Shown piece by piece: positions 4,408-24,331 of a stretch of DNA of 40,490 bases (its first letter is position 1; every line of letters begins with the position of its first letter). A program made the translations under genes and the position numbers. The DNA lies in the NCBI GenBank assembly GCA_964535515.1, contig CAZHTA010000004.1:27888-68377 (forward strand), in the 5' to 3' direction. Origin of the DNA: an uncultured Gammaproteobacteria bacterium. GTDB lineage: Bacteria; Patescibacteriota; Patescibacteriia; Magasanikbacterales; GWA2-37-8. The notes beneath the pieces are model-generated. The model ran no database searches. It saw only the letters and a program-made list of their open reading frames with translations, and had not been told where the DNA came from.

Positions 4408-6441
4408 ATGGAAGAAAATATCTTGGAAAATCAAGCCGCACCAGCGGTGATACCAACCGACGCCGATATAAACTATTTCGGGTTGGTTAACTATCGTAAT
4501 CAAAATCGTAAGTTTGGTATTAAGACTGATGATCGCCGTCGACATATGTATGTTGTCGGTAAAACCGGTATGGGGAAAACGACGATTTTGGAGAATATGG
4601 TGTTAAATGACATCTACGCCGGACACGGGGTTGGTTTGGTTGATCCGCACGGTGATTTTGCTGAAAAGATTATTGACTATATCCCAGCTAATCGTATCAA
4701 CGATGTCGTATATTTCAATCCCGCGGATATTGATTTCCCGATTGGTTTTAATATTTTAGAAACTGTAAAGGCGGAGCACAAACATTTGGTGGCTTCTGGT
4801 TTGATGGGGGTATTTAAAAAGATCTGGCCAGATGTGTGGAGTTCACGTATGGAATATATCTTGAACAACACCCTTTTGGCATTGTTAGATTATCCTGGTA
4901 CAACTTTGCTTGGTATTAATCGTTTATTAGCCGATGCTGACTATCGTAAGCGCGTCGTGCATAATTTGAAAGATCCAGTAGTAAAAGCTTTTTGGCAAAA
5001 TGAGTTTGCGGCTTACAATGATAAATATCGCCAAGAAGCGGTAGCGCCAATTCAAAACAAAATTGGTCAGTTTTTGTCTGCTTCGGTCATCCGTAATATC
5101 GTCGCTCAAGTAAAATCACGAATTAACATTCGTGAGATTATGGATAGTAAAAAGATTTTTATCATGAACTTGTCTAAAGGAAGAATTGGTGAGGATAACT
5201 CGCGTCTTTTGGGTGGTATGCTTATCACCAAGATTCAGTTGGCAGCCATGGAACGCGTAGACACTCCAGAGAAGGATCGTAAGGATTTCTTTTTGTACGT
5301 TGATGAGTTTCAGAACTTTGCTACTGAGAGTTTTGCCAACATTTTGTCAGAAGCACGTAAATATCGCTTGGATTTGACCATGGCTCATCAGTATATGGAG
5401 CAACTAGAAGAGGAAGTCTTGGCGGCTGTTATCGGTAACGTAGGGAGTATTATCACTTTTCGGGTTGGTTCTACTGATGCAGAGATTTTGGCTAAGGAGT
5501 TTATTCCAACTTTTATTGAAGAAGACTTGATTAATTTACCAAAGTTTCATATTTACCTTAAACTAATGATCGACGGCATTGCTTCGCGACCATTTTCAGC
5601 TTTGACTTTGCCACCGATTGCTCAGACTACCCATAGTGAAGAAAAAGTAATTAAGGTTTCGCGTGAACGTTATGCTGTACCACGTGAAAATATTGAAGAC
5701 AAGATCGCGCGTTGGAGTGGCATGGTGATTATTCCAGAAGATGAAGCGAGCGAATTAGAAGTAGACGAAGAAGAGGAAATGTTTGAGAAACAGGTAAAGA
5801 AAGAAGAAAAGAAAGTGGTGGAAAAGCCAAAAGAAGAAGTGAGATCTGAGTCTAAGCCTGAACCAGCTGTTGTGGTGGAGGATACCGTAAAGCCAGAAGT
5901 TGTACAGGATTTACCAAAGACAGAACCAGCGCGGAATGTTTCAGAACCAATCGTGCAACCGCAGCCAGTTGTTAGACCGGTACAGTCTAGTTCGGCACCT
6001 CAAGTGAATCGGACATCCAATAATATTTCAGGGGGCAATCGAAATGGTGGTCAGGGTAGTAGCCAGAATTTTCAGTCTTCTGGTAAAAAGAAAAAAAAGA
6101 AACACCATAGTAGTCCAGGTGGTGGCACCGCGGTTTCTTTGGTGGATACAAGTCAAAAAGGTATTTCTCTAAATAGTTTAAGTCAAGAAAGAAACGGGGG
6201 AGGACAACAACGTGATCAGCAACGTTCGCAACAGCAGAGCGTGCAGTCTCCGGTAAAGGCACAAGAAGAAAGGAGAGAGGTTCCTCAAGTTCCAGTTGTT
6301 CAAAAACCACTTGGACCAGAGACGATCGGCTTGTTGCCAAAGGAGCAACATCAGAATCCGCCGGTTGGAGTTAAATCTCAATCACCCCATCAGCCAGTAA
6401 CGATTTTGCCTGGTCAGGTTAACAAGGTAGAAGAGAATTAA
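4408..6441 (+). CDS. P-loop NTPase of the TraD/TraG/VirD4 (type IV coupling protein-like) family with a roughly 230-aa low-complexity C-terminal tail
   Basis: Walker A is VVGKTGMGKTT and the Walker B-like motif is FFLYVDEFQNF, followed by LTMAHQYMEQL. No N-terminal TM segments. The tail is rich in E/K/P/Q/S/G and includes KKKKKKHH. Confidence 0.6.
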   Translation: MEENILENQAAPAVIPTDADINYFGLVNYRNQNRKFGIKTDDRRRHMYVVGKTGMGKTTILENMVLNDIYAGHGVGLVDPHGDFAEKIIDYIPANRINDVVYFNPADIDFPIGFNILETVKAEHKHLVASGLMGVFKKIWPDVWSSRMEYILNNTLLALLDYPGTTLLGINRLLADADYRKRVVHNLKDPVVKAFWQNEFAAYNDKYRQEAVAPIQNKIGQFLSASVIRNIVAQVKSRINIREIMDSKKIFIMNLSKGRIGEDNSRLLGGMLITKIQLAAMERVDTPEKDRKDFFLYVDEFQNFATESFANILSEARKYRLDLTMAHQYMEQLEEEVLAAVIGNVGSIITFRVGSTDAEILAKEFIPTFIEEDLINLPKFHIYLKLMIDGIASRPFSALTLPPIAQTTHSEEKVIKVSRERYAVPRENIEDKIARWSGMVIIPEDEASELEVDEEEEMFEKQVKKEEKKVVEKPKEEVRSESKPEPAVVVEDTVKPEVVQDLPKTEPARNVSEPIVQPQPVVRPVQSSSAPQVNRTSNNISGGNRNGGQGSSQNFQSSGKKKKKKHHSSPGGGTAVSLVDTSQKGISLNSLSQERNGGGQQRDQQRSQQQSVQSPVKAQEERREVPQVPVVQKPLGPETIGLLPKEQHQNPPVGVKSQSPHQPVTILPGQVNKVEEN

Positions 6442-6518: not shown

Positions 6519-7973
6519 ATGAAACAAGACTATATCCTCAAACAGCGCAAAAAGAACATGTATATTTTCCCTAATGTTTTTGTGATTGGGCGGGTTTTTA
6601 CGGGCAGTTTGAACAAAATATTGAATGGTAAGAATTTTGGAGAAACAATGTGTATTTACAAGGACGATATGATGTATTGGTATGCTTCGGATAGTATGGT
6701 AAAAGCGGCGGCGCAAGAATTTTTTAAGAAATTAAAAAAGAATTCAAATTTTGTTTCTTCGTCTATTCGTATTTTTTCTAAACGTAGTAATTTTTTTCTG
6801 TCTTGGGTAAAAAAAGTTAGTAAGAGGGATTTATCAAAAATGACCAACAAGGAGCTGGATGTTTTTTGGGATAAGTATTTAGAGCTCTATGAGTCTAGCT
6901 ATATCTATAGTGAAGCATTGGTAATTTGTTTTGAAGAATACCTTTCTGGTCTTTTGTCTTCGTATTTAAAGAAATTAGTAAAAAGTGATACTGAAGCATC
7001 TCGGGTTCAAAATGTTCTTGCTTCGCCTTTGGAAAAATCATTTGTGAAAAGAGAAGAAGATGATTTGTTGAATTTGGCGTTAAAGATTAAAAACGGCAAG
7101 GTGAAGGATGTAGAATTGGCGTTAGAAAAACACGTGGAGAAGTATCAATGGGTGCCGTTTGATTATGGTATGTATATTTGGGATAAAAAATATTTTAAAA
7201 AGATTTTGCAAGGGATGTTAAAAAATGCAGATTTAGAGAATCGGATTGTGGCTAGTAAGAAATATTTGAAGTATTTGTCTTTGGAACAGTTGCGTTTAGA
7301 AAAGGAATTAAAGATTGACAAGCAATACAAAAAATATTTTATGGCGATGCGCCAGACGGGGTATTTGTTAGATTACAAAAAGGAAATTTTTACCCAGATA
7401 CATTTTTATGCAGAGAAGGTATTGGCGGAGACAGGTAAACGTTTGGGTGTAAAAAGAGATCTGGTGCAATATTATTTGCCAGGAGAAATCAAGACTGCCT
7501 TAAAGGAAGGTAAAGTGGTTGGCAAGAAAATATTAGAAGCGAGACAAAAACATTGTTATGTTCGTTGGTTTGATAATAGTATCGAAGCAGTGATAGACAA
7601 GCCGGATAGTTTGTTGGCTAAATTTTTATTAAAAGAAGATCCGACTTCAGCTAAATTTGAGGGTATTATTGCTTCGGCGGGAAAATGTATTGGAAAGGTA
7701 AAGATTTTACATAGTGCGTTAGAAGTAGACAAGGTGAAATTGGGTGATATTTTAGTTGCACCAATGACTAGTCCAGATTATGTTCCGGCGATGCGTTTGG
7801 CTGGGGCAATTATTACTGATGAGGGCGGGGTGATGTGTCACGCGGCGATTGTGTCGCGTGAATTAGGTATCCCGTGTGTGGTTGGTACGAAAAATGCCAC
7901 AAAGTTTTTACATGACGGTGACGAAGTGGAAGTGGATGCTAATCATAATTCGGTGAGGATAATTCGCAGATAG
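6519..7973 (+). CDS. Swivel-domain paralog 1: uncharacterised N-terminal domain + C-terminal PEP-utilizer (phosphohistidine) mobile domain
   Basis: The C-terminus GDILVAPMTSPDYVPAMRLAGAIITDEGGVMCHAAIVSRELGIPCVVGT aligns with the E. coli PpsA His-domain (GGRTCHAAIIARELGIP). The N-terminal part carries KHVEKYQWVPFDYG. Confidence 0.85.
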   Translation: MKQDYILKQRKKNMYIFPNVFVIGRVFTGSLNKILNGKNFGETMCIYKDDMMYWYASDSMVKAAAQEFFKKLKKNSNFVSSSIRIFSKRSNFFLSWVKKVSKRDLSKMTNKELDVFWDKYLELYESSYIYSEALVICFEEYLSGLLSSYLKKLVKSDTEASRVQNVLASPLEKSFVKREEDDLLNLALKIKNGKVKDVELALEKHVEKYQWVPFDYGMYIWDKKYFKKILQGMLKNADLENRIVASKKYLKYLSLEQLRLEKELKIDKQYKKYFMAMRQTGYLLDYKKEIFTQIHFYAEKVLAETGKRLGVKRDLVQYYLPGEIKTALKEGKVVGKKILEARQKHCYVRWFDNSIEAVIDKPDSLLAKFLLKEDPTSAKFEGIIASAGKCIGKVKILHSALEVDKVKLGDILVAPMTSPDYVPAMRLAGAIITDEGGVMCHAAIVSRELGIPCVVGTKNATKFLHDGDEVEVDANHNSVRIIRR

Positions 7974-7974
7974 C

Positions 7975-9411
7975 ATGTTAAATAGCAGCGATTCAAAACA
8001 TATTCGTGAAACTAATTGGTATCGCCAAGGTGGGGCGATTAATTTGTTTTATTGTTTTAGTCCGTTTCAATCTATTCGCGAAACCATTGGTTATGATGGT
8101 TGTATTATGTATCAAGAGGATGCTGTTAATACTGCTTTTTTTGAACGAGACAGAGAGGATAAGTTAGCACTTAAATTTATCCGAGCAAGCGGGGAAGACA
8201 AATATTTGGTGGACAGATGGATAAGCGTTTGGCGTATACGCATATTAAAGTTAAATAAGTTTTTAGATAAAAGTTTTTCTAAACCATTGGAAACGTGGTC
8301 TGATGCGGAGTTGGTTAATTTTTTCCATCGTTATGATCATTTGGCTTTAAGTCATTGGAAGAAGGGTGTTTTGTGTGAATGGACTGACCCTAATGGCTGG
8401 AATATAGTAAAGACGGAGGCTTTAAAATATTGCCCTAATCTTAGTGATGAAGATATTAATCTGTTAACATCACCAGAAAAGTTAACTGTAGTGCAGAAAG
8501 AATTAGTTGATCGGTTGGTTTTAATGAAAAAACAAAAGCAGGGTTTAAGTATTGAGCGCGAGCTTAAGAAACATGTTAGTAAATATTTTTGGATTCGCAA
8601 TAATTGGGCGTTTGTTTATGATTTAAAAGAAAAAGATTTTCAAAAGGTTATTAACAAAGAAATGTTAAAGTTGGAGAAAGTTGAAAGACAAGTGAAAGAA
8701 ATTAATGAATATATACGTGAGATTAAGAAAAAGAAAAAGATTTTAATCAAGAAAAAATCAGTACCACGTAAAGTACAAAATGTTTTTTACTTTTTTACTC
8801 AATTAACCGATTGGCGCGATGAGAGGAAAAAATTTGCTGCTTGTTTGCCAAATCATTATTTATATAAAATATTGAAAGTATTGGCGAAGAGAAATAATAT
8901 TTCTGAGGAGTTGGTTGGTTTATTAATATGGTTTGAAATTAGTGGTTGGAAATTATCTGTAAAAACAATAGATAATTTAAAAAGACGAGGGCAGGGCTGG
9001 ATCTATTATTGTCGTAAAAATAAACAATGCCAACAAGTTTATGGTAGTGAGGCAAAAAAGATTTTTAATGATTTGGTTAAGGCGTTAGATAAAGGTGAAT
9101 TGCGAGGGTTAATAGCAAACAAGGGTGTTGTGATTGGTAAAGCGAAGATTGTGGAAGTACAAGCTGATTTTAGTAAAGTAAAAAAAGGGGATATTATTGT
9201 TGCTAACATGACGCGCCCAGATTATGTACCGATTATGAAATTGGCAGGTGGAATAATTACCAATGAGGGAGGGATTACTTGTCACGCGGCAATTGTTAGT
9301 CGTGAGTTAAATATTCCTTGTATAATTGGGACACAGGTGGCTACGGATGTTTTAAAAGACGGTGATGTTATAGAAGTTGATGCGGATAATGGTGTAATTA
9401 GAAAAAAATAA
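7975..9411 (+). CDS. Swivel-domain paralog 2
   Basis: GDIIVANMTRPDYVPIMKLAGGIITNEGGITCHAAIVSRELNIPCIIGT. N-terminal motif KHVSKYFWIRNNWA. 1-nt gap to the upstream gene. Confidence 0.85.
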   Translation: MLNSSDSKHIRETNWYRQGGAINLFYCFSPFQSIRETIGYDGCIMYQEDAVNTAFFERDREDKLALKFIRASGEDKYLVDRWISVWRIRILKLNKFLDKSFSKPLETWSDAELVNFFHRYDHLALSHWKKGVLCEWTDPNGWNIVKTEALKYCPNLSDEDINLLTSPEKLTVVQKELVDRLVLMKKQKQGLSIERELKKHVSKYFWIRNNWAFVYDLKEKDFQKVINKEMLKLEKVERQVKEINEYIREIKKKKKILIKKKSVPRKVQNVFYFFTQLTDWRDERKKFAACLPNHYLYKILKVLAKRNNISEELVGLLIWFEISGWKLSVKTIDNLKRRGQGWIYYCRKNKQCQQVYGSEAKKIFNDLVKALDKGELRGLIANKGVVIGKAKIVEVQADFSKVKKGDIIVANMTRPDYVPIMKLAGGIITNEGGITCHAAIVSRELNIPCIIGTQVATDVLKDGDVIEVDADNGVIRKK

Positions 9412-9414
9412 TTT

Positions 9415-10890
9415 ATGCAAGATATTAATAGGTTGACTGAGAAAGATTGGTATTTTCAAGGGTTCAATGGTGTCCCAGCTCTTTTGTATGGTCCCGCTTG
9501 GTCTATGGCGCGTGATATGCCAAAATTTTTAGGTTTTGGCTATTCTGTTTGTGTTGAATATTTCACTAAGGATGTTTGTTATTATCTATATTCTTGGGAT
9601 GATTTATATAAAATTCATGATGAATTATTAAAACGTGTTAAACGCGACAAAAATTATTTGCGTTATTTATCAAAATCAGATGAATGTTTATGTAAAGAAG
9701 TGATTAAAGAATATAAAATTTTAGGTGGGAAAGATTGGTGCAGTGCTTCCATAAAAGAATTATTTTCGGGTTGGCGTAAAGCCAATGATTTATATGCGCA
9801 TCTTTTAGGGGTTTCGCATATTGTAGAAGGGTTTAGTTTAACCACAGAAGATCGAATTAGAGCTTTGATTAATGAAGTTTTTCCTAATGATTCCGGAGCT
9901 TTGTCGTTGCTCACTACTCCCAAGACGCATTCTTTTATGTCTATTGAGCACTATGAGTTATGTTTAATAGCTCATGGTGTTAAACGTATTAAATTGGGTA
10001 AGTGTACTGTTGAAAATATTTTGGTTAATAAGGTGATAAATAAAAAAATATGTCTTCATCAGGAGAAATATTATTGGAAATTAAATGGTTATACGTCGGC
10101 TAAGTTTCTAGACGACAAGTATTTTGCCAAAGAAATATGTGGTTTGTTAAACAAGAAAGTTAATTTTGAAAAATTTATTCATGATTTTGAAAATTTGTCC
10201 AAAAGATTAGATGGAAAAAAGAAACTTCTTAAAAAAGTGAAAAATCAAGAATTACTTGATTTATTAAAAATTTCTGATGCGTTGTTTGTGATCCACGATC
10301 GTCGTAAAGAGCATATGACGCAATCAATTACTTATTTGGAATTAATTTTAAGTGAGATTGCTAAGCGATTTAAAATACCTTTATCTGATTTGCACTATAT
10401 TCGTCCGTCAGAGTTAGAAAAGTTACCTAAGATTTGGTCGGAGTTAAAAAAGAGGAAAGAACATAGCATATACATTTTATATCCAGAAGGAGAGATGCCA
10501 GTATTAACTGGTTTAAAAGCAAAAAAATATTTTGAAAAAATTGAAAAGAATAAAAAATTAGATAAGATTTCGGAGATTAAAGGGAATGGTGCGTCGCCAG
10601 GAAAAGTAAGAGGCGTAGTTAAGGTGTGCCGCGGTGAAAAAGAATTAGGTAAAATGAAAGAAGGAGATATTCTCGTGGCGTGTATGACACAGCCTGAATT
10701 TTTACCGGCTTTGAGAAAAGCTAAGGCCGTCATTACTGATGAGGGTGGTTTGACTTGTCATGCTGCGATAGTGGCAAGGGAGTTAGGAATTCCTTGTGTG
10801 ATTGGAACAAAAGTAGCTACTAAAGTTTTAAAAGATGGTGATATGGTAGAAGTTGATGCGGATAATGGTATAATTAGGAGAATAAAATAG
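9415..10890 (+). CDS. Swivel-domain paralog 3
   Basis: GDILVACMTQPEFLPALRKAKAVITDEGGLTCHAAIVARELGIPCVIGT. N-terminal motif HQEKYYWKLNGYT. Confidence 0.85.
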   Translation: MQDINRLTEKDWYFQGFNGVPALLYGPAWSMARDMPKFLGFGYSVCVEYFTKDVCYYLYSWDDLYKIHDELLKRVKRDKNYLRYLSKSDECLCKEVIKEYKILGGKDWCSASIKELFSGWRKANDLYAHLLGVSHIVEGFSLTTEDRIRALINEVFPNDSGALSLLTTPKTHSFMSIEHYELCLIAHGVKRIKLGKCTVENILVNKVINKKICLHQEKYYWKLNGYTSAKFLDDKYFAKEICGLLNKKVNFEKFIHDFENLSKRLDGKKKLLKKVKNQELLDLLKISDALFVIHDRRKEHMTQSITYLELILSEIAKRFKIPLSDLHYIRPSELEKLPKIWSELKKRKEHSIYILYPEGEMPVLTGLKAKKYFEKIEKNKKLDKISEIKGNGASPGKVRGVVKVCRGEKELGKMKEGDILVACMTQPEFLPALRKAKAVITDEGGLTCHAAIVARELGIPCVIGTKVATKVLKDGDMVEVDADNGIIRRIK

Positions 10891-10892
10891 TT

Positions 10893-10926
10893 CTTTAAAA
10901 CACAAGCACCCGACCGAAGTCGAGTG
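10893..10926 (-). terminator. Intrinsic terminator of the island gene
   Basis: The minus strand reads CACTCGAC-TTCG-GTCGGGTG followed by CTTGTGTTTT. It starts 35 nt after the stop codon. Confidence 0.6.
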
Positions 10927-10960
10927 CGTTGTGCACGTTGTTGGGGCCTGCTCCAATGAG

Positions 10961-11452
10961 CTAGGCCAGTCGCGTCGCGGTACCGTCGCCGAGGTGGAGC
11001 TCGTACACGGCGCTGCTCGCAGCCTCGAGCTTGAGGCTCTCGAGCACCGGACGTCCGGCCACGAGGACGACGTCCGGGCTGCCCTCGGCGAGGATCAGCA
11101 TGCCGTACGTTTCCCGCAGGTGCATGAGCGTGGCTTCGCGGGACGGCATTCGGAACCGGTCCAACGTCGTCTGCGCGTTGCAGGCGAGCGCGATGTTCCA
11201 CCCTCCGTTGCCGTTGGGGACGCCCGAGCTGGGGTCACCCAGCATGGGATCGTACCACTCGATCTCCTGGAAGATGTCCAGCGCCTCGGCCGTGTCGATG
11301 TGACGCCGGGCGGTCCCGCAGAAGACTCGACGCTTGTCGGGGAGGGGCAGGTGCGGTACGAGCCGTTCGATCTCGCTTCTTCCTTTGCTCGTGAGACCGG
11401 GGTCCGCACCGGGACCCTTCGAACCGTGGGTGATCAATAGGACTCGCGCCAT
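10961..11452 (-). CDS. SixA/PGAM-like histidine-phosphatase-fold protein (163 aa) with degenerate catalytic motifs; high GC3
   Basis: MARVLLITHGSKGPGADPGLTSKGRSEIERL...RRVFCGTARRHIDTAEAL follows the RHG...LTxxGRxQ...SPxxRAxxTA pattern. It has THG in place of RHG and VLVAGRPV in place of the distal SH motif. AGGAGAA lies 6 nt upstream of the ATG at 11452. The 198-aa track ORF is an upstream extension. Confidence 0.6.
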   Translation of the reverse strand: MARVLLITHGSKGPGADPGLTSKGRSEIERLVPHLPLPDKRRVFCGTARRHIDTAEALDIFQEIEWYDPMLGDPSSGVPNGNGGWNIALACNAQTTLDRFRMPSREATLMHLRETYGMLILAEGSPDVVLVAGRPVLESLKLEAASSAVYELHLGDGTATRLA

Positions 11453-11473
11453 CTCTCGTTCTCCTATGGTTGT

Positions 11474-11488
11474 GCGACACGCTGTCGC
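11474..11488. promoter_or_regulatory. Inverted repeat GCGACA-CGC-TGTCGC in the 5' region of the island gene (operator or hairpin candidate)
   Basis: Perfect 6-bp arms with a 3-nt spacer, about 20 nt upstream of the SD on the minus strand. Confidence 0.3.
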
Positions 11489-11605
11489 TTGGTCCCAAAT
11501 AAACGTGCAGTTTGTTTCAGATAGTGCTCGGATTTGGTTAAATCCAGGCAAAATCATGGTACCAAACGTTTCAGTATAGTATATTTTCGCTGTTTTGTCA
11601 ATATT

Positions 11606-13087
11606 ATGTACAAATCACCTCAATTTAAATCAAATAAACTAGAACTTACGGTTAGTCGTCCGTATGTTCCTTTGTGTGCTAACTATTTTTTCCAAAGCTA
11701 CAGTAATCCAGAATATTTTAAGAAGTTTTATAAAATTAACTTTTTTACTCGTTTATTAGCAATTAATGCGGATTTTTATTATGGCCTAGAAGCAAAAGAT
11801 TTTGGCTATGTTCTTTTTGGACAAGCGGCAAAGTATGGTAGTCATAGTAAAATTAAAAAGAAAAATCTTAAGGGTATTTTGCACATTTTTGATCGGACCT
11901 ATAAATTTGGTGATTCGTTATTGGAATTTACTTTGCAAGTTAAGAAAACAGATTTTTCTGAATATTCAAAGAAGCAATTATTAGAGGTGTTTGGAAAATT
12001 TTCGAAAGATTATGTTGTTTTTTGTACTGCTTTATTGGGTATGAATATGCAGTATGTTGTCGAAGATGGTTTGCGTGAGTTTCTACGAAGTGATAAAAAC
12101 GCAGAAGAGGAGCTTGCGATTTTGACTTTTCCTGATAAACAAAATGTTCTTGTTCAAGAACTAATGGACTTATTGCGTTTACGAATTAAATTAGAAAAAG
12201 TTGGTGTTAAGAATTTGGAAAAATGTAAGACCAAGGAGCTTGGCTTACTAAAGAAGCATGTTGATAAGTACGGTTGGATCAATGCTCGTGGTGCCATTAA
12301 TGAAGGATGGACGGTAAAAGAGGTTTTTGATCGGGCGATGGCAGAAAAGAATTGTGCTAAACGTTTGGTTGAGATAGTTAAGAATCAAAAAGAGCATCAA
12401 AAACAAGTTCGAGATATATTTAAAACAAAAAAACCTAATGCGGAAATTAGGGATTTAATAAAAATCGCCAAAGAGCTGGTATATTTTCGCACCTACCGTA
12501 CAGATTATCTTAATTGGATGTTTTTTAATATTCGTCCTTTATTAAATGCGTTGGCAGGTAAGATGGGTATTAGTTTTGAGGATATTATATATTATCTACC
12601 AAAAGAAATCATGACTAAGAAAAAAGTGTCTGAAAAAGAGGTTGTTCGTCGCAAGGAAGGTTACGCGATATTGTTAGCTAAACCTTATGAGGTATTATTC
12701 TCCTCTGATCCTAAGAAAATATTGGAATGGAAAAAGAAACATACTGAGGTATTAGGTGGCAATGTTACGGAAGTTAAGGGTATGTCTGCATACAAAGGTA
12801 TTGTTCGTGGTAAGGCTGTGTTGGTATTGAAAAAGGCTGATATGGTAAAGGTTAAGTCGGGGGATGTTTTAATCACTTTTATGACTACGCCAGATATGGT
12901 ATCGGTTATGCAGAAAGCAATAGCGTTTGTTACTGATGAGGGTGGTATTACATGCCATGCGGCGATTGTAGCACGGGAGATGAAGAGACCGTGTGTAACA
13001 GGGACCAAAATTGCTACTAAGGTTTTTAAAGATGGCGATGAAGTAGAAGTGGATGCGAATACTGGTGTAGTGAAAATTATTAAATAA
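11606..13087 (+). CDS. Swivel-domain paralog 4 (ATG 11606 preferred over the TTG 11534 of the track)
   Basis: GDVLITFMTTPDMVSVMQKAIAFVTDEGGITCHAAIVAREMKRPCVTGT. N-terminal motif KHVDKYGWINARGA. The 5' extension of the track ORF runs into island/intergenic sequence. Confidence 0.85.
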   Translation: MYKSPQFKSNKLELTVSRPYVPLCANYFFQSYSNPEYFKKFYKINFFTRLLAINADFYYGLEAKDFGYVLFGQAAKYGSHSKIKKKNLKGILHIFDRTYKFGDSLLEFTLQVKKTDFSEYSKKQLLEVFGKFSKDYVVFCTALLGMNMQYVVEDGLREFLRSDKNAEEELAILTFPDKQNVLVQELMDLLRLRIKLEKVGVKNLEKCKTKELGLLKKHVDKYGWINARGAINEGWTVKEVFDRAMAEKNCAKRLVEIVKNQKEHQKQVRDIFKTKKPNAEIRDLIKIAKELVYFRTYRTDYLNWMFFNIRPLLNALAGKMGISFEDIIYYLPKEIMTKKKVSEKEVVRRKEGYAILLAKPYEVLFSSDPKKILEWKKKHTEVLGGNVTEVKGMSAYKGIVRGKAVLVLKKADMVKVKSGDVLITFMTTPDMVSVMQKAIAFVTDEGGITCHAAIVAREMKRPCVTGTKIATKVFKDGDEVEVDANTGVVKIIK

Positions 13088-13117
13088 TTTGTTTATATAT
13101 TTTTAACTTATAAAAAT

Positions 13118-14200
13118 ATGGAAAGAGGACCAAGTTTAAGGCCAGAGGATATGCTAGTTGGCAATGATGGGGTGGATCAGAAAGCGCGAGGTGTAATTGA
13201 ATCACGTGATAGCGCCGTAGCTCATAATATTGAGCGTGGGGAAGGCTTATCATCTTCGCGTGTTGTTTTGGAGTTTATGCGTCATGGTAAAAAAGAAAAA
13301 GCGCCAGGCAAAGATGATCGTGATATACGCATTGTTCCGGAAGCGCGTGTGGCAGCAACGGAAAAAGGTAAAAAATTAGGAGCGCAAGCTGAGGTGTCGG
13401 TTGTTTATGCTAGTCCGCGTAACCGTACTCAGGAATCTGCTGGCCGAGTTGCTTTGGGTAATCAATCAGAAATTACTGCGGATATGAGCTTAGAGGATAT
13501 TATGGTTAAAACAATGGAGCATAATGCTATTTTAATGCCTGATCAGTTAGAACGTTTGCGCGAGCTGTTGTCTCATCCAATGGAAGAATTAAATGCTGAA
13601 GAAAAGAAGGAGCTAAAACTTTTGTCGAGTAAAGGTAAAAAAATCATGGTTGATGAACGTTTGGATTTTACTGATGAAACAGAGGAGGGTCTAAAAGCTT
13701 TTATGGCTGGTCGTTATTTAGATCATGCTGTAAAGGATAGTGATCAGTTGGCAATTGCAAAGCATGATACTAAATTATCTACCTATACTCGTTCGGCTGG
13801 TAAGATCGCGGAGATTGTTTCTAAATATATTCAGGTGGGTAAAAATTTTAACAAAAGAGTAAGTGTTGATCCAGAGAAATATAAAAAATTCGGTAATCAA
13901 TTAGAAAGATATTTTGGTTCACACCAAGGTGTTGTAGAATGTTTTTTGTTGAAAGCAATCGAGAAAATAAAAGGTGTAAAAGAGCGTGATGAGATTTTGG
14001 CTTTGATGCCAGCAGGTTTTAAAGAGTTACAAGGTGTAAGGATTGGCATTGAGAACAATGGCAAAGGAGAACAGGTGATTGTTTTAGATGCCGAAGTTGA
14101 AGGAAGAAAGATTAATTTAGAATTAACCCCAGAGATTTTAATGGGTATGGTTAGTGATAGAGATGTGCTGGATGAACAATGTAAGAGTAGTGTGGAGTAA
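13118..14200 (+). CDS. Histidine phosphatase superfamily (PGAM-like) protein with a large internal insertion
   Basis: LEFMRHGKK (RHG), VVYASPRNRTQESA and the distal YFGSHQGVVE (SH motif). About 150 extra residues lie between the two half-sites. Native low GC. Confidence 0.7.
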   Translation: MERGPSLRPEDMLVGNDGVDQKARGVIESRDSAVAHNIERGEGLSSSRVVLEFMRHGKKEKAPGKDDRDIRIVPEARVAATEKGKKLGAQAEVSVVYASPRNRTQESAGRVALGNQSEITADMSLEDIMVKTMEHNAILMPDQLERLRELLSHPMEELNAEEKKELKLLSSKGKKIMVDERLDFTDETEEGLKAFMAGRYLDHAVKDSDQLAIAKHDTKLSTYTRSAGKIAEIVSKYIQVGKNFNKRVSVDPEKYKKFGNQLERYFGSHQGVVECFLLKAIEKIKGVKERDEILALMPAGFKELQGVRIGIENNGKGEQVIVLDAEVEGRKINLELTPEILMGMVSDRDVLDEQCKSSVE

Positions 14201-14210
14201 TATTGTTGTT

Positions 14211-15281
14211 ATGTCTATCGTTCCTGATAAATTTTTAAAAGGAGAGTGTTGGCTGAAAGATTGGGCGGGTCAGTGGGATCTTTTTATTTGTTTTTATTCA
14301 GGAGAAGATTATACCACCTTACTTAAAAAGTGGTTGGGTATTAATTTTGATAAATGTCTTTTTATTTATCACGATGGGTTTGTGGAGTGTTATTTAAATA
14401 AAAGATGTTTAGATATTTTGGGTAGAGAGATTAACGCGAGGGTTAAAGAGGATGTTTTGTGGATTGATAGGAATTGTAAAGATCTTAAAAAGAATACACA
14501 AATTTTCCTAAAATATTTTGCTGAGCATAAAAACGATTTGGTTGCGGAAGAGACATTGAAGAAGTTTTTGCAGTTGGTTAGCAATTGTTTTGCTGCGTAT
14601 ATTTCTAATAAATTAGCATTTGATTATTTGTCAGCAGATATATTAAAGAAAAAATGGAATGTGATGGAATCGGCACGTGTATACTCAGAATCGGTTTATA
14701 CGGCGTGTATAGAGTTTGTTCACAATTGGGGTAAACAAATGGCGAAAAAAGTTAAGATACCAAAGGATCTCTTTCTTTGTTGTTCGTTAAATGAAATTGA
14801 AACTTATTATCGATCGGGTAGATTACCAAGTGTTAGCGAGTTAAAGCGACGGTATTCGTTTAATGTGATACTTTCACAGAATGGTCAGAGTTTTTTATTG
14901 ACTGGCTCAGAGGCTAAGGCTGTTGAGAAAAAGATTATTAGTTCATTTGGCGACAGTAAAACCATTAAAGGCACCTGTGCCTATCCGGGGAAAGTAACGG
15001 GGCGGGTTAGAATTGTTTTTGATCCTAAAAAGATAAAAGATTTTAAAGATGGGGATATCTTGGTAACACCGATGACGCGACCGGAGTATCTTTCTCTAGT
15101 TAAAAAATCCGCTGGTTTTATTACTGATGCTGGCGGTATGCTTTCTCACGCCGCTATTACAGCGCGCGAGTTAAAGAAGCCGTGCGTGGTAGGTACCCAA
15201 GTGGCTACGCGTTTGTTAAAAAATGGAGATGAGGTGGAAGTGGATGCCAACAAAGGGATAGTTAATGTGATTAAAAGATAA
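14211..15281 (+). CDS. Swivel-domain paralog 5 (short, 356 aa; ATG 14211 preferred)
   Basis: GDILVTPMTRPEYLSLVKKSAGFITDAGGMLSHAAITARELKKPCVVGT. Confidence 0.85.
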   Translation: MSIVPDKFLKGECWLKDWAGQWDLFICFYSGEDYTTLLKKWLGINFDKCLFIYHDGFVECYLNKRCLDILGREINARVKEDVLWIDRNCKDLKKNTQIFLKYFAEHKNDLVAEETLKKFLQLVSNCFAAYISNKLAFDYLSADILKKKWNVMESARVYSESVYTACIEFVHNWGKQMAKKVKIPKDLFLCCSLNEIETYYRSGRLPSVSELKRRYSFNVILSQNGQSFLLTGSEAKAVEKKIISSFGDSKTIKGTCAYPGKVTGRVRIVFDPKKIKDFKDGDILVTPMTRPEYLSLVKKSAGFITDAGGMLSHAAITARELKKPCVVGTQVATRLLKNGDEVEVDANKGIVNVIKR

Positions 15282-15288
15282 TGATTTT

Positions 15289-16839
15289 ATGAAGGTGCTA
15301 AAAACTTTTCCTTTGGCTTTGACCAAAAAAACTGCTAGTCAGTTTAATAAGGCGTTTCATGCCAAGTTATTTACTTTGTTTGCTTCTTCGATGAGTGAAC
15401 TAATGCAGTTGGCTAAGGATTTTCCTGTGCATTATAAACATTGTTTGTGTTTTATTAAAGATGATTTAGGCCAGTGGTTTTTGGGCGCAGATAGCATCGA
15501 AAGAGTTAGGCGGTATATCATAAAAAAAGCTGATGAGGATTTTTCTCAGATAAATAAATATTATTTACGTTGGCAGAAAGACTGGGGTAAGTTTTTAATA
15601 TTAAACAGAAAATTAATTAGTTCAGATTTTAGTTCTTTGACTGACAAGCGGTTGTATAAAGTTTTTGATGAGTTTTATGATCTATATTTAAAAGTAGGTG
15701 GTGTGGCATATATTAGTGATGCCTTTATGTCCTCTGGGGAAAAAGATTGGCTGCAAGAGGTTATAAACCAAGAATTAAAACGCATTTATAAAGATATTGA
15801 AAAAGTAAAAAGGGTGGCGGCGGATTTGATTTCGCCAGTTCATCTTTCTTTTGTTTTGGAAGAAGAACTTGAATTATTAAAACTAGCTCCGGCGTTTATT
15901 AATCTTACTGGTAAATTGGTGGGTTTTAATAAGTTGTCCGCTAAACAACTAGCGCAGCTGGAACGTCATGCTGACAAATATTATTGGATGAATAATAACT
16001 ACTATAACGTAGAATTTTACGATGCATTTTCAGTATATACACATCTGGTCAATCTTTTAGATGGTTTGCAACAAGAAAAACGTAGCCTTAGTGATTTTTT
16101 GGCGGAGAGACAGCGCGAATTAAAGGAAAATAAAACGAGGCGTGAGGGGTTGATTAGTGATATTAAGCTACCAAAAAAGATTAAGAGCTTAATTCGGGTA
16201 GCTAATTTGTTTAGCAAGTGGAAAGACGTTCGGAAAAGTGGTGTGTATCGTGGCATGGCAATTTTTGATAAATTTTTGGGCGAGATAGCAATGCGTACTG
16301 GTTATACAAAAAAGGAAATTACTTTTTTAGTTTTTCCGGAGTTCAAGGATTTATTGTTAAATAGAAAAGATTTTCGGTTGGTTATAAAAGATCGTCAAAA
16401 GCAAATATTTTTTGTGGTGCGTCCGCACGACTATCTTTTGGTTAGCGGTCAAAAGGCGGATAAATATTTTGCTTGTTTGTCCGAAGGACTCAATGCTGAG
16501 ATGAAAGAATTCAAAGGAGCAGTGGCCTCCAAAGGAATCGCGCGCGGGGTGGTGCGGATGATAAGGAAAACAGAAGAGATGAAAGACTTTAAAAAAGGTG
16601 AAATTTTAGTTACCAACAATACTACACCAGAGTTTGTTCCAATCATGAAAAAGGCCGCAGCGATCATTACTGAACAAGGTGGTATAACCTCACATGCTGC
16701 TGTAGTTTCGCGTGAATTGCGTAAGCCGTGTATTATTGGTGTTAAAGGTATTACAACCATTTTAAAAACAGGGGTAGAGGTTGAAGTAGATGCTAATCAT
16801 GGTATAATTAAGATTATTAATAAAAGTTTAAAGAAATAA
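15289..16839 (+). CDS. Swivel-domain paralog 6
   Basis: GEILVTNNTTPEFVPIMKKAAAIITEQGGITSHAAVVSRELRKPCIIGV. N-terminal motif RHADKYYWMNNNYY. Confidence 0.85.
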   Translation: MKVLKTFPLALTKKTASQFNKAFHAKLFTLFASSMSELMQLAKDFPVHYKHCLCFIKDDLGQWFLGADSIERVRRYIIKKADEDFSQINKYYLRWQKDWGKFLILNRKLISSDFSSLTDKRLYKVFDEFYDLYLKVGGVAYISDAFMSSGEKDWLQEVINQELKRIYKDIEKVKRVAADLISPVHLSFVLEEELELLKLAPAFINLTGKLVGFNKLSAKQLAQLERHADKYYWMNNNYYNVEFYDAFSVYTHLVNLLDGLQQEKRSLSDFLAERQRELKENKTRREGLISDIKLPKKIKSLIRVANLFSKWKDVRKSGVYRGMAIFDKFLGEIAMRTGYTKKEITFLVFPEFKDLLLNRKDFRLVIKDRQKQIFFVVRPHDYLLVSGQKADKYFACLSEGLNAEMKEFKGAVASKGIARGVVRMIRKTEEMKDFKKGEILVTNNTTPEFVPIMKKAAAIITEQGGITSHAAVVSRELRKPCIIGVKGITTILKTGVEVEVDANHGIIKIINKSLKK

Positions 16840-16840
16840 T

Positions 16841-17827
16841 ATGCCAAAAGTTTCTCATATTAAGTTTTTTAAGAATATCTCTAAAAGTGATGTTGATATT
16901 GCTGGTGGTAAGGGTGCGTCTTTAGGTGAGATGACACAAGCCAAGATTCCAGTACCAAATGGTTTTGTGGTTTTAGCCGCAGCCTTTGATCGTTTTTTAG
17001 AAGAGACACAATTAAAAGAGGAAATTGTGGCACGGCTAAAGGAAGTTAACCCAGAAGATACTAATTCGGTTGATCGTATTAGTGCGGTTATTCGTGATGC
17101 GATTCATGATCGGTCAATGCCTAAAGATTTGCAGAAAGAAATTTTAGGAGCATTTACTAAGTTAGATGCTAAATTTGTGGCTGTACGTTCATCGGCTACA
17201 GCAGAGGACTCATCTGTTGCTAGCTGGGCAGGGGAGCTGGAGAGTTATTTAAATACGAGTAAAAAAGATTTGATTGAACGGGTGCGTCGTTGTTGGTCGT
17301 CGTTGTTTACTCCGCGTGCTATTTTTTATCGTCATGAAAAAGGGTTAATTGACCATTATGTCTCAGTAGCGGTAGTAGTACAAAAAATGGTGCAGTCAGA
17401 AATTTCTGGCATTGCTTTTACTGTTCATCCAGTAACGGAAGATTATGACCAGATGATTATTGAAGCGGGGTATGGTTTGGGTGAAGCGATTGTCTCTGGA
17501 CAAATTACACCTGATAGCTATGTGATTAGCAAGGGTAGTATGGAGATTATGGATACTTATGTTAGTTCACAAGCTCGTCAGTTAATTCGTAAGAAATCTG
17601 CTAAGAGCAAAGGGGATGAAGAAAACACTTCAAATGAGTGGGTAAATTTAGGTAAAAAAGGTGAAAAACAAAAGGTCGACAACAAAACGGTCTTGGCCCT
17701 GGCCAAAGTATTTAAACGGATTGAGGACCATTACAAGTTTCCGTGTGATATCGAATGGGCTATGGAAAAGAAAAAAATATATATTACCCAAAGTCGTCCG
17801 ATTACTACTTTAAAGAAGAAAAAGTAG
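16841..17827 (+). CDS. Stand-alone PpsA/PPDK N-terminal ATP-grasp (nucleotide-binding) domain protein
   Basis: Collinear with E. coli PpsA residues about 1-345: GGKGASLGEM, IPVPNGFVV, VAVRSSATAEDS..SWAGE, AVVVQKMV, GIAFTVHP, EAGYGLGEAIVSG and DIEWAMEKKKIYITQSRPIT. It ends there, with no His or TIM-barrel domain. 1-nt gap to paralog 6. Confidence 0.9.
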   Translation: MPKVSHIKFFKNISKSDVDIAGGKGASLGEMTQAKIPVPNGFVVLAAAFDRFLEETQLKEEIVARLKEVNPEDTNSVDRISAVIRDAIHDRSMPKDLQKEILGAFTKLDAKFVAVRSSATAEDSSVASWAGELESYLNTSKKDLIERVRRCWSSLFTPRAIFYRHEKGLIDHYVSVAVVVQKMVQSEISGIAFTVHPVTEDYDQMIIEAGYGLGEAIVSGQITPDSYVISKGSMEIMDTYVSSQARQLIRKKSAKSKGDEENTSNEWVNLGKKGEKQKVDNKTVLALAKVFKRIEDHYKFPCDIEWAMEKKKIYITQSRPITTLKKKK

Positions 17828-18980: not shown

Positions 18981-19009
18981 TTGACAGAAACACGTTTTTG
19001 TGCTATAAT
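18981..19009 (+). promoter_or_regulatory. Consensus sigma70 promoter TTGACA-17 nt-TATAAT
   Basis: ttgacagaaacacgtttttgtgctataat. The -35 is at 18981-18986 and the -10 at 19004-19009. Confidence 0.7.
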
Positions 19010-19149
19010 GTCAACAATTAACTTGGGCAATGTAGTAAGGGCCTAAAAGCCAACAGGACGTTCCCAGTATTTCCAGGCTGGATTAAACCAGTCGGAGGTC
19101 GAATTTATCTATCTCAAACAACATTTTGGGAACAAAACAATCAAAATAT

Positions 19150-19479
19150 ATGGCTTTTGGTACTGACAGACAAATGTTTGATGTTGACTTGACCTGTGCT
19201 AAGTGCGGGTCTCACATCGCTCAGTTGCCTTTTCAACCATCTGGTGATCGACCGGTTTACTGTTCTGACTGCAACCGTGCTTTCCGCCAGAGTCGTCCTG
19301 ATGATCGTGGTAGCCGTGGTGGTAGTTTTGGTGGACGCTCAGATGGCCCTCGCCAGATGTACAGCGTTAACCTAAGCTGCGCTTCCTGCGGAACTGCGAT
19401 TACCCAACTACCGTTCCAGCCAACTGGTGATAAGCCAGTTTACTGCCGGGACTGTATGCAGGCTCGTCGTAATGGTTAA
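19150..19479 (+). CDS. Tandem CxxC-x18-CxxC zinc-ribbon protein with an RGG-like linker (ATG 19150 preferred over TTG 19126)
   Basis: Two repeats, CAKCGSHIAQLPFQPSGDRPVYCSDC and CASCGTAITQLPFQPTGDKPVYCRDC, joined by DDRGSRGGSFGGRSDG. G+C is visibly higher than in the neighbours. Confidence 0.75.
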   Translation: MAFGTDRQMFDVDLTCAKCGSHIAQLPFQPSGDRPVYCSDCNRAFRQSRPDDRGSRGGSFGGRSDGPRQMYSVNLSCASCGTAITQLPFQPTGDKPVYCRDCMQARRNG

Positions 19480-19491
19480 AATGGAAATCAA

Positions 19492-24277: not shown

Positions 24278-24331
24278 AACCTCCTGCTTTGTCTCCAAAT
24301 ATTTAGAGATAAAACAGTAGGGCGGTCGGAT
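24253..24331 (-). terminator. Possible terminator for the island-2 ORF: 10-bp inverted repeat with a large loop and a U-rich tail on the minus strand
   Basis: ATCCGACCGC (24264-24273, inside the 3' end of the GtrA-like CDS) pairs with GCGGTCGGAT (24322-24331, the island edge). The 48-nt loop holds an inner palindrome, GTCTCCAAATATTTAGAGAT (24291-24310). The minus strand continues TTTTGTTTTCC. Confidence 0.3.

What the first reader, a model, noticed from the sequence alone, without database searches (positions are those of the whole stretch)
10891..11535. About 70% G+C island inserted antisense in the middle of the swivel-domain operon, encoding a SixA-like histidine-phosphatase-fold protein with degenerate active-site motifs
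Seen:
- G+C jumps abruptly, to 44/60 at 11041-11100 versus 21/60 in the flanking genes. This is the only large gap between operon genes.
- The island carries one minus-strand ORF (10961-11452, 163 aa) with strongly G/C-biased third positions.
- It has its own canonical SD (AGGAGAA), although native genes in this window mostly lack an SD.
- It also has an upstream perfect inverted repeat (GCGACA-CGC-TGTCGC) and its own UUCG-loop terminator.
- The protein follows the histidine-phosphatase pattern (xHG...LTSKGRSEIERL...GTARRHIDTAEAL) at SixA-like size. However, it reads THG instead of RHG and AGRP where the distal SH motif should be.

Established: SixA is a phosphohistidine phosphatase of this fold.

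Inference:
- This is a recently acquired, unameliorated gene from a high-GC donor, for example an actinobacterial host of an epibiont.
- Its fold fits the phospho-His chemistry of the surrounding operon, either as a phosphatase or as a catalytically altered binder or regulator.
- The same data could also reflect an assembly chimera.
Basis: partly seen in the sequence, partly recalled or inferred. Interest (0 to 1): 0.72.

Follow-up and report, generated by a model that had tools for sequence, protein, structure and literature searches.

The report
GC-rich phosphatase-fold gene in dikinase array
The GC-rich island is a real, self-contained gene for an unnamed type of histidine-phosphatase-fold protein that repeatedly sits backwards inside phosphate-carrier (dikinase) gene arrays of ultra-small Patescibacteria, so it belongs to that system and is neither a random foreign insert nor an assembly error.

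Summary
Bases 10900-11498 are 65% G+C in a 37% window. They carry one intact minus-strand gene (10961-11452, 163 aa; GC1/2/3 = 0.67/0.49/0.85) with an AGGAG ribosome-binding site, a 6-bp inverted repeat, a UUCG-loop terminator and a near-consensus promoter in the AT-rich flank.

In 5 of 10 independent loci the family gene lies antisense next to swivel-domain or PPDK_N genes. One locus repeats the window's architecture exactly. That argues strongly against a chimera or a random insertion.

The flanking array looks like a two-component RPH/HpeHI-type dikinase set.

No donor was found. The best relative is 40% identical, and the one actinobacterial hit is a different protein. Family genes next to the array are GC3-rich, and 8 of 10 carry a Shine-Dalgarno site in hosts that lack them.

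Likely function: a phosphatase or phosphoryl acceptor for this dikinase system. This allele probably came from an unsampled high-GC lineage.

The parts
10900..11498 (.). High-G+C island (65% against 37% background). It covers exactly the terminator, the ORF, the SD and the proximal 5' UTR.
10961..11452 (-). 163-aa ORF: a histidine-phosphatase-fold protein of an unnamed 'T-H-G-x-K / R-H / G-R-P' family.
11459..11465 (-). Shine-Dalgarno AGGAGAA, 6 nt upstream of the ATG.
   Evidence: Native genes have an SD core in 2 of 36 cases.
11474..11488 (-). Perfect 6-bp inverted repeat GCGACA-CGC-TGTCGC in the 5' UTR. It could be a hairpin or an operator. It is not significant on its own.
11573..11601 (-). 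Sigma-70-type promoter TTGACA-17-TATACT (11/12 matches). It lies in AT-rich DNA about 121 nt upstream of the ATG and back-to-back with the start of the next swivel gene.
10890..10934 (-). Intrinsic terminator: a 15-bp stem with a UUCG loop (10900-10934), followed by a U-tract that abuts the stop codon of the upstream swivel gene.
   Evidence: z = -4.4
9415..10890 (+). Upstream neighbour, convergent with the island gene. A 491-aa protein with a helical N-domain and a C-terminal PEP-utilizers swivel domain (..GGLTCHAAIVARE..). It resembles RPH/HpeH.
11606..13087 (+). Downstream neighbour, divergent from the island gene across a 153-bp spacer. A paralogous swivel-domain protein.
6519..9411 (+). 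Two further swivel-domain paralogues (6519-7973 and 7975-9411).
13118..14200 (+). Canonical (RHG) His_Phos_1 protein, 360 aa, inside the same array in the sense orientation.
14154..16839 (+). Two further swivel-domain paralogues (14154-15281 and 15289-16839).
16841..17827 (+). Stand-alone PPDK_N ATP-grasp protein (like HpeI and the RPH N-domain). It is the presumed phosphoryl donor for all six swivel proteins.
   Evidence: (E = 1e-95)

Best explanation
The island is a genuine monocistronic transcription unit on the minus strand: promoter, 5' UTR, SD, 163-aa ORF and intrinsic terminator.

It encodes an intact member of an undescribed, apparently Patescibacteria-associated branch of the histidine-phosphatase fold. 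In this branch the canonical R-H...R...H catalytic set is replaced by a conserved T-H...R(H)...R set. The nucleophile His9 and Arg50 are kept. The first Arg is Thr8. Arg134 sits where the second His would be.

This gene family is a recurrent antisense partner of arrays that encode a split, RPH/HpeHI-type dikinase. Such an array has one ATP-grasp PPDK_N protein and several '[substrate domain + phospho-His swivel domain]' proteins.

Inferred mechanism: PPDK_N loads the swivel histidines from ATP. The island protein then removes or accepts that phosphoryl group, either from the phospho-His carrier or from the phosphorylated small-molecule product. That would reset or limit the system. Its convergent/divergent placement lets it be expressed independently of the array, and possibly in opposition to it.

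This particular allele has the codon and amino-acid composition of long residence in a genome of about 65% G+C. It was therefore most likely brought in by horizontal transfer (xenologous gain or replacement) into the slot this gene normally occupies. The donor is an unsampled high-GC lineage that has the same family, and nothing shows it to be an actinobacterium.

Shown: the transcription-unit anatomy, the coding signal, the family, the fold, the motif conservation, the neighbourhood conservation and the composition anomaly.

Inferred: the substrate, the catalytic competence, the direction and source of transfer, and any regulatory role of the antisense layout.
For: Coding and signals.

Family: 69 credible representatives, all about 117-210 aa, with an invariant-like H9, P18, G24, G46, R50, G72 and G133. 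The window protein keeps every conserved residue.

Motif register: T8-H9 aligns to SixA R7-H8 and R50 to R55 (hhalign). G133-R134 aligns to SixA S107-H108 and to the 'THGG' of the Kineococcus protein.

Neighbourhood:
- L003 has the same swivel-stop | <-gene | swivel-start layout, with spacers of 95 and 150 bp against 70 and 153 bp in the window.
- L009, a Patescibacteria MAG, has the gene convergent with a run of swivel genes.
- L013-L016 have it convergent with a swivel gene.
- L001 has it divergent from a PPDK_N gene 54.5% identical to the window's.
- That is 5 of 10 independent loci. The chance probability is about 7e-7 to 6e-5 at assumed base rates of 2-5%.
- The linked members are scattered over a star-like tree, so the linkage is not the legacy of one clade.

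Array identity: PPDK_N matches the PEP synthase and RPH ATP-grasp domains at E = 1e-50 to 1e-72. A model of the swivel paralogue finds rifampin phosphotransferase as its top six Foldseek hits, over about 470-560 columns. Two-component dikinases (HpeHI, CreHI, PpsAB) are described in PMC12167813, where the phosphorylated products are later dephosphorylated. A canonical RHG phosphatase also sits in the array.

Foreign composition of this allele: GC1/2/3 z-scores are 3.8, 2.1 and 9.3 against host ORFs. The GARP/FYMINK ratio of 2.15 is at the top of the family's range. The gene has an SD, against 2 of 36 host genes.
Against: - No biochemical data exist, and the family lacks two of the four canonical catalytic residues. 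It could be inactive or could do something other than hydrolysis.
- The sequence match to PF00300 is below threshold (17.0 against 21.7 bits).
- No donor or close relative was found anywhere. There is no integrase, no tRNA and no flanking direct repeats. HGT therefore rests on composition alone.
- Elevated GC3 (z = 2.8-5.8) and an SD recur in other family members that have host-like amino-acid composition. That is not what simple amelioration predicts, and it hints at a systematic cause other than one-off transfer.
- Half of the family loci are not next to dikinase genes.
- The context sample is small (10 loci) and several contigs are short.
- Residue positions in the active site come from sequence and secondary-structure register, not from inspected coordinates.
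Confidence: 0.55

Rival explanations
1. One reading: a recent, essentially random insertion of an unameliorated gene from a high-GC actinobacterial host of an epibiont. It disrupts the operon, and its motifs have decayed.
For: GC3 is 0.85 and the amino-acid composition is GC-shifted. The gene has a canonical SD in a genome without SDs. A second high-GC islet in the same window suggests repeated uptake. The only hit among species genomes is an actinobacterium, Kineococcus.
Against: The Kineococcus protein is an ordinary, longer histidine phosphatase with SP..R..QTA and THGG motifs. It is 33% identical over only 63 residues. The best relatives, at 35-41% identity, come from low-GC contigs, one annotated as Patescibacteria. 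The same slot and orientation are occupied by a homologue in L003 and in similar layouts elsewhere. The motifs are family-conserved, not decayed.
Confidence: 0.1
2. Composition is maintained in place. Family genes embedded antisense in dikinase arrays are kept GC3-rich and SD-bearing by selection or by a biased process. Candidates are very high or independent expression, resistance to antisense read-through or RNase attack, and biased gene conversion. On this view the island is an old resident, not a recent import.
For: GC3 is anomalous in all 5 array-linked loci (z = 2.8-9.3, or 0.50 against 0.34) and in none of the 5 unlinked loci (Fisher p = 0.004). An SD core is present in 8 of 10 family genes against 7 of 98 host genes (p = 7e-7). 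In L001 the protein has a host-like amino-acid composition (ratio 0.8) yet its GC3 is 0.50 against 0.23. That is the opposite of what amelioration predicts. The consensus promoter lies in native AT-rich DNA.
Against: No known mechanism produces GC3 of 0.85 in a genome with GC3 of 0.33. Highly expressed host genes reach only about 0.37-0.43. Here the non-coding UTR and terminator are also GC-rich. GC1 and GC2 are shifted beyond the family norm. No conserved antisense ORF exists. Hosts at 32-37% G+C would make any import look GC-rich.
Confidence: 0.2
3. The protein is a catalytically dead pseudo-phosphatase. It would bind phospho-His, phospho-Thr or phosphate and regulate the swivel proteins or PPDK_N without hydrolysing anything.
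Against: The nucleophile His9 (61/64) and Arg50 (63/64) are almost invariant, and a new conserved Arg134 replaces the lost charge. That looks like a remodelled active pocket rather than a lost one.
Confidence: 0.2
4. Assembly chimera or contaminant fragment.
For: There are abrupt composition boundaries. The exact protein and its neighbours are not in the public gene index. Read data are not available.
Against: The fragment is a complete gene of a family that sits in the same antisense position relative to swivel genes in four other independent assemblies. It fits exactly between a stop codon and a native promoter. There are no repeats at the junctions.
Confidence: 0.02
5. The island is a structured non-coding RNA rather than a protein gene.
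For: GC-rich islands in AT-rich genomes are often RNA genes. Several frames are open.
Against: There are no Rfam matches even at E <= 5. The codon-position G+C periodicity is strong. The translated product has 69 credible homologues and folds with pLDDT 94.
Confidence: 0.01

Closest known systems
SixA phosphohistidine phosphatase (E. coli; PDB 1UJC)
   Different: Identity is 21%. Thr replaces Arg7 and Arg134 replaces His108. There is an extra beta-meander at residues 72-96, carrying the conserved G-x-P-x-S and L-A-D-G motifs. There is no match to any NCBIfam model. The partners are dikinase swivel domains, not HPt domains of two-component sensor kinases.
Histidine phosphatase superfamily branch 1 (Pfam PF00300; e.g. 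M. tuberculosis Gpm2/Rv3214, PhoE, the fructose-2,6-bisphosphatase domain)
   Different: The score is below the Pfam gathering threshold, and only 5 of 64 family members reach E < 0.01. The catalytic set is T-H/R/R instead of R-H/R/H. The protein is much shorter than most members.
Two-component small-molecule dikinases HpeHI, CreHI and PpsAB, and single-chain rifampin phosphotransferase RPH (PMC12167813, PMC4844700). This is the system the island gene accompanies.
   Same: A stand-alone ATP-grasp subunit plus a '[substrate-binding + swivel His]' subunit with the GGxT(S/C)HAA motif. In the Hpe pathway the phosphorylated product is later dephosphorylated.
   Different: Here six paralogous swivel subunits share one ATP-grasp gene. 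The substrates are unknown. The host is a reduced Patescibacteria genome, not an aromatic-compound degrader. The accompanying phosphatase-fold genes (one canonical, one T-H type) have no described counterpart.
PPDK / PEP synthase regulatory protein (PDRP/PSRP, DUF299)
   Same: It is a dedicated regulator that acts on the phospho-carrier loop of a dikinase, at the Thr two residues before the catalytic His. The window's swivel domains keep T-C-H. This comparison draws on established knowledge.
   Different: The fold and chemistry are unrelated: PDRP is a P-loop kinase/pyrophosphorylase. This is an analogy of role only, and it was not tested.

Membership tests
Histidine phosphatase superfamily (fold level) | Alpha/beta fold with the phosphoglycerate-mutase-like topology | tested here: met
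Histidine phosphatase superfamily (fold level) | Nucleophilic His directly after strand 1 (the H of RHG) | tested here: met
   H9 is present and conserved in 61 of 64 family members. It aligns to SixA H8.
Histidine phosphatase superfamily branch 1 (Pfam PF00300) | Score at or above the curated gathering threshold | tested here: not met
   17.0 bits against 21.7, over the N-terminal residues 14-59 only. Only 5 of 64 relatives reach E < 0.01.
Histidine phosphatase superfamily branch 1 (Pfam PF00300) | Full catalytic core: Arg-His, a second Arg and a second His | tested here: not met
   T8 replaces the first Arg. R50 is kept. R134 sits at the second-His position. The register comes from alignment, not from inspected coordinates.
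SixA (phosphohistidine phosphatase) | Sequence membership in the NCBIfam/TIGR SixA models | tested here: not met
   No NCBIfam family matches at E <= 1. PDB SixA chains are seen only at E = 0.25 with the family profile.
SixA (phosphohistidine phosphatase) | Phosphatase activity on a phospho-His protein substrate | not testable with these tools
   This needs biochemistry. Only the gene neighbourhood suggests phospho-His carriers as targets.
Horizontally acquired genomic islet | Composition, codon usage and expression signals that deviate from the host | tested here: met
   GC3 z = 9.3, GC1 z = 3.8 and GC2 z = 2.1. The gene has an SD, against 2 of 36 host genes.
Horizontally acquired genomic islet | An identifiable close homologue in a candidate donor clade | tested here: not met
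   The best hit is 40% identical among about 15 billion proteins. The GTDB species-genome scan found only Kineococcus, at 33% over 63 aa. There are no plasmid, phage or viral-contig hits.
Horizontally acquired genomic islet | Empty site in related genomes, or mobility hallmarks (integrase, tRNA, direct repeats) | tested here: not met
   Homologues occupy the equivalent slot in L003 and similar slots in L009, L014 and L001. There are no flanking direct repeats, no tRNA in the window and no integrase nearby. True orthologous genomes were not available (one search found only a relative at 34% identity).
Two-component RPH/HpeHI-type dikinase system (accessory gene of) | Conserved adjacency to PEP-utilizers (swivel) or PPDK_N genes across genomes | tested here: met
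   5 of 10 independent loci. The chance probability is about 1e-6 to 6e-5.

The most novel reading that the evidence does not exclude
The T-H/R-H/G-R-P proteins are a previously unrecognised class of phosphoryl-handling partner for multi-paralogue two-component dikinases in Patescibacteria. They could be a His-to-His phosphoryl acceptor or a dedicated phospho-carrier phosphatase.

Their genes behave as self-contained expression cassettes, each with its own promoter, SD and terminator, and always antisense. Their G+C content and translation signals are systematically alien to their SD-less, AT-rich hosts.

This would mean either that a gene circulates horizontally and is repeatedly captured at dikinase arrays, or that an unknown process keeps one gene compositionally distinct inside a streamlined genome.
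Probability: 0.2. Interest if true: 0.75.

Novelty: new variant of a known kind. Interest (0 to 1): 0.55.

Why it matters
Patescibacteria have tiny genomes, yet this one spends about 11 kb on six paralogous phospho-carrier proteins, one ATP-grasp loader and two phosphatase-fold proteins. Nobody knows what these arrays phosphorylate.

A conserved antisense partner with a remodelled histidine-phosphatase active site gives a concrete handle on the system. It can be expressed and tested against the swivel proteins in vitro.

The family also shows that the 'RHG' signature is not obligatory for a conserved branch of this fold. That matters for annotation, because these proteins are currently labelled 'hypothetical' and have no Pfam or NCBIfam hit.

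Finally, the family-wide combination is an unexplained compositional phenomenon: GC3 excess only when the gene is array-linked, and SD sites in SD-less hosts. It could inform how gene transfer or expression control works in episymbiotic bacteria.

Tried and rejected
- Word-indexed homology search with the protein found nothing. The alignment query recovered only 5 proteins.
- Exact-sequence look-ups of the window's own proteins found nothing, so the window is not in the gene index.
- Plasmid and phage tblastn found nothing. Three viral-contig scans found nothing. The BFVD fold search returned only generic histidine-phosphatase folds. PADLOC and PHROGs found nothing. A phage, plasmid or defence-system origin therefore has no support.
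- The search for related loci with the family alignments failed because no stretch was conserved enough. The single genome scan was then spent on the window protein. As a result the family's taxonomic spread across GTDB could not be measured.
- The metagenome scan with the flanking swivel protein gave only a 34%-identical relative, L008, with no family gene. A true orthologous 'empty site' test was not possible.
- The ncRNA reading is rejected: Rfam found nothing at the gathering threshold or at E <= 5.
- I tested whether the operon-sense strand keeps an ORF through the island, which might avoid polarity. The long antisense ORF exists only in the window, as expected from high G+C, and not in homologous loci. 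Rejected.
- I checked for an integron attC-like site at the 3' hairpin by eye. There are no R''/R' core sites, so this is a plain terminator. Rejected.
- A target-site duplication or terminal inverted repeats would indicate a mobile element. Only short, chance-level repeats were found.
- There is no DNA similarity between the two GC islets.
- The family tree is star-like and gives no usable clade structure.
- The AFDB50 fold library was unavailable.
- Literature searches for this family or for such arrays in Patescibacteria found nothing relevant.
Full report

Yes. The window averages 37.4% G+C. Bases 10900-11498 are 65% G+C (391/599), and 11041-11100 has exactly 44/60 G+C as reported.

The 715-bp space between the stop of the gene ending at 10890 and the ATG at 11606 is the only large gap in a run of tightly packed plus-strand genes. 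The other gaps are -47 to 77 bp.

Several ORFs are open across the island, as expected for high-GC DNA. Only the minus-strand frame 10961-11452 shows the coding signature GC3 > GC1 > GC2 (0.85/0.67/0.49). The other frames have shifted or mirror-image versions of that pattern. Its GC3 lies about 9 standard deviations above 41-43 host ORFs.

The other stated features are confirmed:
- The SD AGGAGAA lies at 11459-11465, 6 nt from the ATG.
- The inverted repeat GCGACA-CGC-TGTCGC lies at 11474-11488.
- A 15-bp-stem, UUCG-loop hairpin at 10900-10934 is followed by a U-tract. It folds at -30.5 kcal/mol with z = -4.4, and 0 of 200 shuffles fold as well.

The inverted repeat alone is not statistically remarkable, and the 5' UTR as a whole folds no better than shuffles (z = -1.0).

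Two things were added. First, a near-consensus promoter, TTGACA-17-TATACT, lies at 11601-11573 on the minus strand. It sits in the AT-rich flank, back-to-back with the next gene's start. Second, the claim that native genes lack an SD holds: only 2 of 36 have even a 4-nt core.

Rfam finds nothing in the island, even at E <= 5.

**2. What is the protein?**

Pfam gives only a sub-threshold N-terminal His_Phos_1 match (17.0 bits against a cut-off of 21.7). NCBIfam gives nothing. PDB sequence searches are marginal.

An exhaustive phmmer scan of 1.84 billion cluster representatives found 70 hits. All but one repeat artefact are 117-210 aa. The best is 40% identical at E = 3e-15.

Aligned, the hits define a clear family. 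Its motifs are (V/I)-T-H-G-x-K, (N/D)-P-G-(L/M)-T-x-x-G, C-G-T-G-(R/K)-R-H, G-x-P-x-S, L-A-D-G and G-R-P. Conservation counts out of 64:

| Residue | Conserved in |
|---|---|
| T8 | 56 |
| H9 | 61 |
| K12 | 55 |
| P18 | 63 |
| G46 | 63 |
| R50 | 63 |
| H51 | 53 |
| G133 | 58 |
| R134 | 57 |

The window protein keeps all of these.

Profile alignment puts T8-H9 on SixA R7-H8 and R50 on SixA R55. Adding SixA and a canonical actinobacterial homologue to the family alignment puts G133-R134 on S107-H108 and on the H of 'THGG'.

The fold claim is therefore right. The canonical R-H/R/H tetrad has become T-H/R/R, with an adjacent conserved His51. That looks like a remodelled pocket, not a decayed one. 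I could not inspect coordinates, so the spatial arrangement is inferred.

**3. Where does the family live, and next to what?**

The one organism name attached to a relative is 'Patescibacteria group bacterium', for P0002 (MFH1366575.1, 41% identical). P0004 lies on an 831-kb contig.

I recovered DNA context for ten independent family loci, counting the window. All of these contigs are low-GC (32-44%).

- **L003.** The gene lies antisense between two genes whose products are homologues of the window's swivel paralogues (27-57% identity). The spacers are 95 bp (convergent) and 150 bp (divergent), against 70 and 153 bp in the window. This is the same architecture, although the phosphatase-fold proteins are only 29% identical.
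- **L009.** The gene is convergent with a run of three PEP-utilizers genes.
- **L013-L016.** The gene is convergent with a PEP-utilizers gene.
- **L001.** The gene is divergent from a PPDK_N gene 54.5% identical to the window's.

Five of ten loci adjacent to such genes has a chance probability of about 1e-6 to 6e-5, even if 2-5% of genes had such a neighbour. In nine of the ten loci the gene is solitary and opposite in strand to at least one immediate neighbour; in L010 it runs the same way as its neighbours.

The array-linked members are scattered over a star-like family tree. The linkage is therefore not one clade's accident.

This result does three things:
- It makes an assembly chimera very unlikely.
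- It contradicts 'random insertion into the middle of an operon'.
- It gives independent support to a functional tie with the array.

**4. What is the array?**

The window carries six paralogues of 375-516 aa, at 6519, 7975, 9415, 11606, 14154 and 15289. Each has a C-terminal PEP-utilizers swivel domain with the catalytic ..GG(L/I)TCHAAIVARE.. motif. Downstream is one stand-alone PPDK_N ATP-grasp protein (16841-17827). A canonical RHG His_Phos_1 protein (13118-14200) sits among them.

PPDK_N matches the PEP synthase and rifampin-phosphotransferase ATP-grasp domains at E = 1e-50 to 1e-72. An AF2 model of the 9415 paralogue is only moderately confident (pLDDT 67.6, from a six-sequence alignment). 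Its top six Foldseek hits are Listeria rifampin phosphotransferase, over about 470-560 columns, well beyond the swivel domain.

This is the domain logic of the two-component small-molecule dikinases HpeHI, CreHI and PpsAB. In those, an ATP-grasp subunit loads a swivel His on a substrate-binding subunit, and the phosphorylated product is dephosphorylated later in the pathway (PMC12167813; RPH, PMC4844700).

The most economical function for the island protein is therefore to remove or accept phosphoryl groups handled by this system. The target could be the phospho-His carrier (a SixA-like role) or the phosphorylated product. This step is inference.

**5. Why is it so GC-rich?**

For this allele all three codon positions are shifted (z = 3.8, 2.1 and 9.3). 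The amino-acid composition sits at the GC-rich extreme of the family (GARP/FYMINK 2.15). The UTR and terminator are also GC-rich, and the gene carries an SD that the host does not use. Together these indicate long evolution in a genome of about 65% G+C, and so horizontal arrival.

No donor can be named:
- Nothing closer than 40% identity exists among about 15 billion proteins.
- The scan of 185,579 species genomes found one hit, in Kineococcus. It is an ordinary, longer histidine phosphatase that shares only the 'KGPGADPGLT' stretch.
- There are no plasmid, phage or viral hits.
- There are no mobility hallmarks.

A puzzling family-level pattern also emerged.
- The gene's GC3 exceeds the host's in all five array-linked loci: window z = 9.3, L001 5.4, L014 5.8, L009 2.8, and L003 0.50 against 0.34. 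It does so in none of the five unlinked loci (Fisher p = 0.004).
- Eight of ten family genes carry an SD core, against 7 of 98 host genes (p = 7e-7).
- In L001 the protein's amino-acid composition is host-like while its synonymous sites are GC-enriched. That is the reverse of what amelioration predicts.

The window is therefore the extreme case of a trend. The cause could be recurrent transfer into low-GC hosts or some in-place constraint. It remains unexplained.

A second GC islet of about 300 bp (24320-24615) lies in the same window. It is also antisense, and it has no homologues and no clear coding periodicity. It shows that such islets are not unique here, but it does not settle their origin.

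**6. Verdict**

The fold and the functional association hold. 'Degenerate motifs', 'actinobacterial donor' and 'chimera' do not.
- I rate this a new variant of a known kind: an unannotated branch of the histidine-phosphatase fold with an altered, conserved active-site set, tied to Patescibacteria dikinase arrays.
- Interest is moderate (0.55). The protein family and its linkage are new and testable. The compositional and SD anomaly is curious. The function is still inferred, and the context sample is small.

Noticed in passing
window 24320-24615 (minus strand; candidate ORF 24395-24616, 73 aa, MPCNNPDCSETAPCADCWEE...): A second small high-G+C islet (peak 0.71 per 100 nt) between a GtrA-like gene and infA. 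It is again antisense to its neighbours. It has a possible TTGACT-17-TTTAAT promoter, read by eye rather than taken from a tool scan. Codon-position G+C is nearly flat (0.66/0.58/0.68), so coding is uncertain. It has no protein homologues, no Pfam, PADLOC or PHROGs hit, no Rfam hit and no DNA similarity to the first island.
   Followed up: partly
window 24258-24337: A long near-perfect palindrome (ATCCGACCGC...GCGGTCGGAT, with an inner AAAT/ATTT stem). It straddles the stop of the GtrA-like gene and the 3' end of the second islet. It looks like a bidirectional terminator. Rfam matched it only spuriously, to miRNA hairpin models.
   Followed up: partly
window 6519-17827: An array of six paralogous '[~400-aa helical domain + PEP-utilizers swivel domain]' genes plus one stand-alone PPDK_N gene. 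It resembles a multi-substrate two-component RPH/HpeHI-type dikinase set. The substrates are unknown. A TrwB/DUF87/HerA-like ATPase (4408-6441) lies just upstream, and a similar ATPase lies within a few kb of the family gene in L001 and L010.
   Followed up: partly
window 13118-14200 (+): A canonical RHG histidine phosphatase (His_Phos_1, E = 8e-6; 360 aa with a long C-terminal extension) sits in the sense orientation inside the same array. The array therefore carries two different phosphatase-fold proteins.
   Followed up: no
whole window; also L001, L002, L010: Native genes almost entirely lack Shine-Dalgarno sequences: 2/36 in the window, 0/15 in L001, 0/8 in L002 and 0/12 in L010. The T-H family gene carries AGGAG or GGAGG in 8 of 10 loci.
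   Followed up: partly
L004 1031-1258, L006 746-991, L011 2857-3111: In three family loci that are not array-linked, a ParE-like toxin gene lies next to or near the phosphatase-fold gene (directly convergent in L004 and L006; one gene away in L011). This hints at variable or mobile genome regions.
   Followed up: no
window about 19150-19480 (+): A small protein with a duplicated CxxC...CxxC zinc-ribbon module, at 54% G+C. It has what looks like its own consensus promoter (TTGACA...TATAAT near 18983-19010, read by eye) and a terminator. It is probably a highly expressed small protein.
   Followed up: no
L007 9989-10891 (Kineococcus sp. DHX-1, NZ_CP170445.1): An actinobacterial histidine-phosphatase homologue with QH in place of RH (MSVTVVLAQHAEKGPGADPGLT...) but with the normal SP..R..QTA and THGG motifs. 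It shares the 'KGPGADPGLT' stretch with the island protein and little else.
   Followed up: partly
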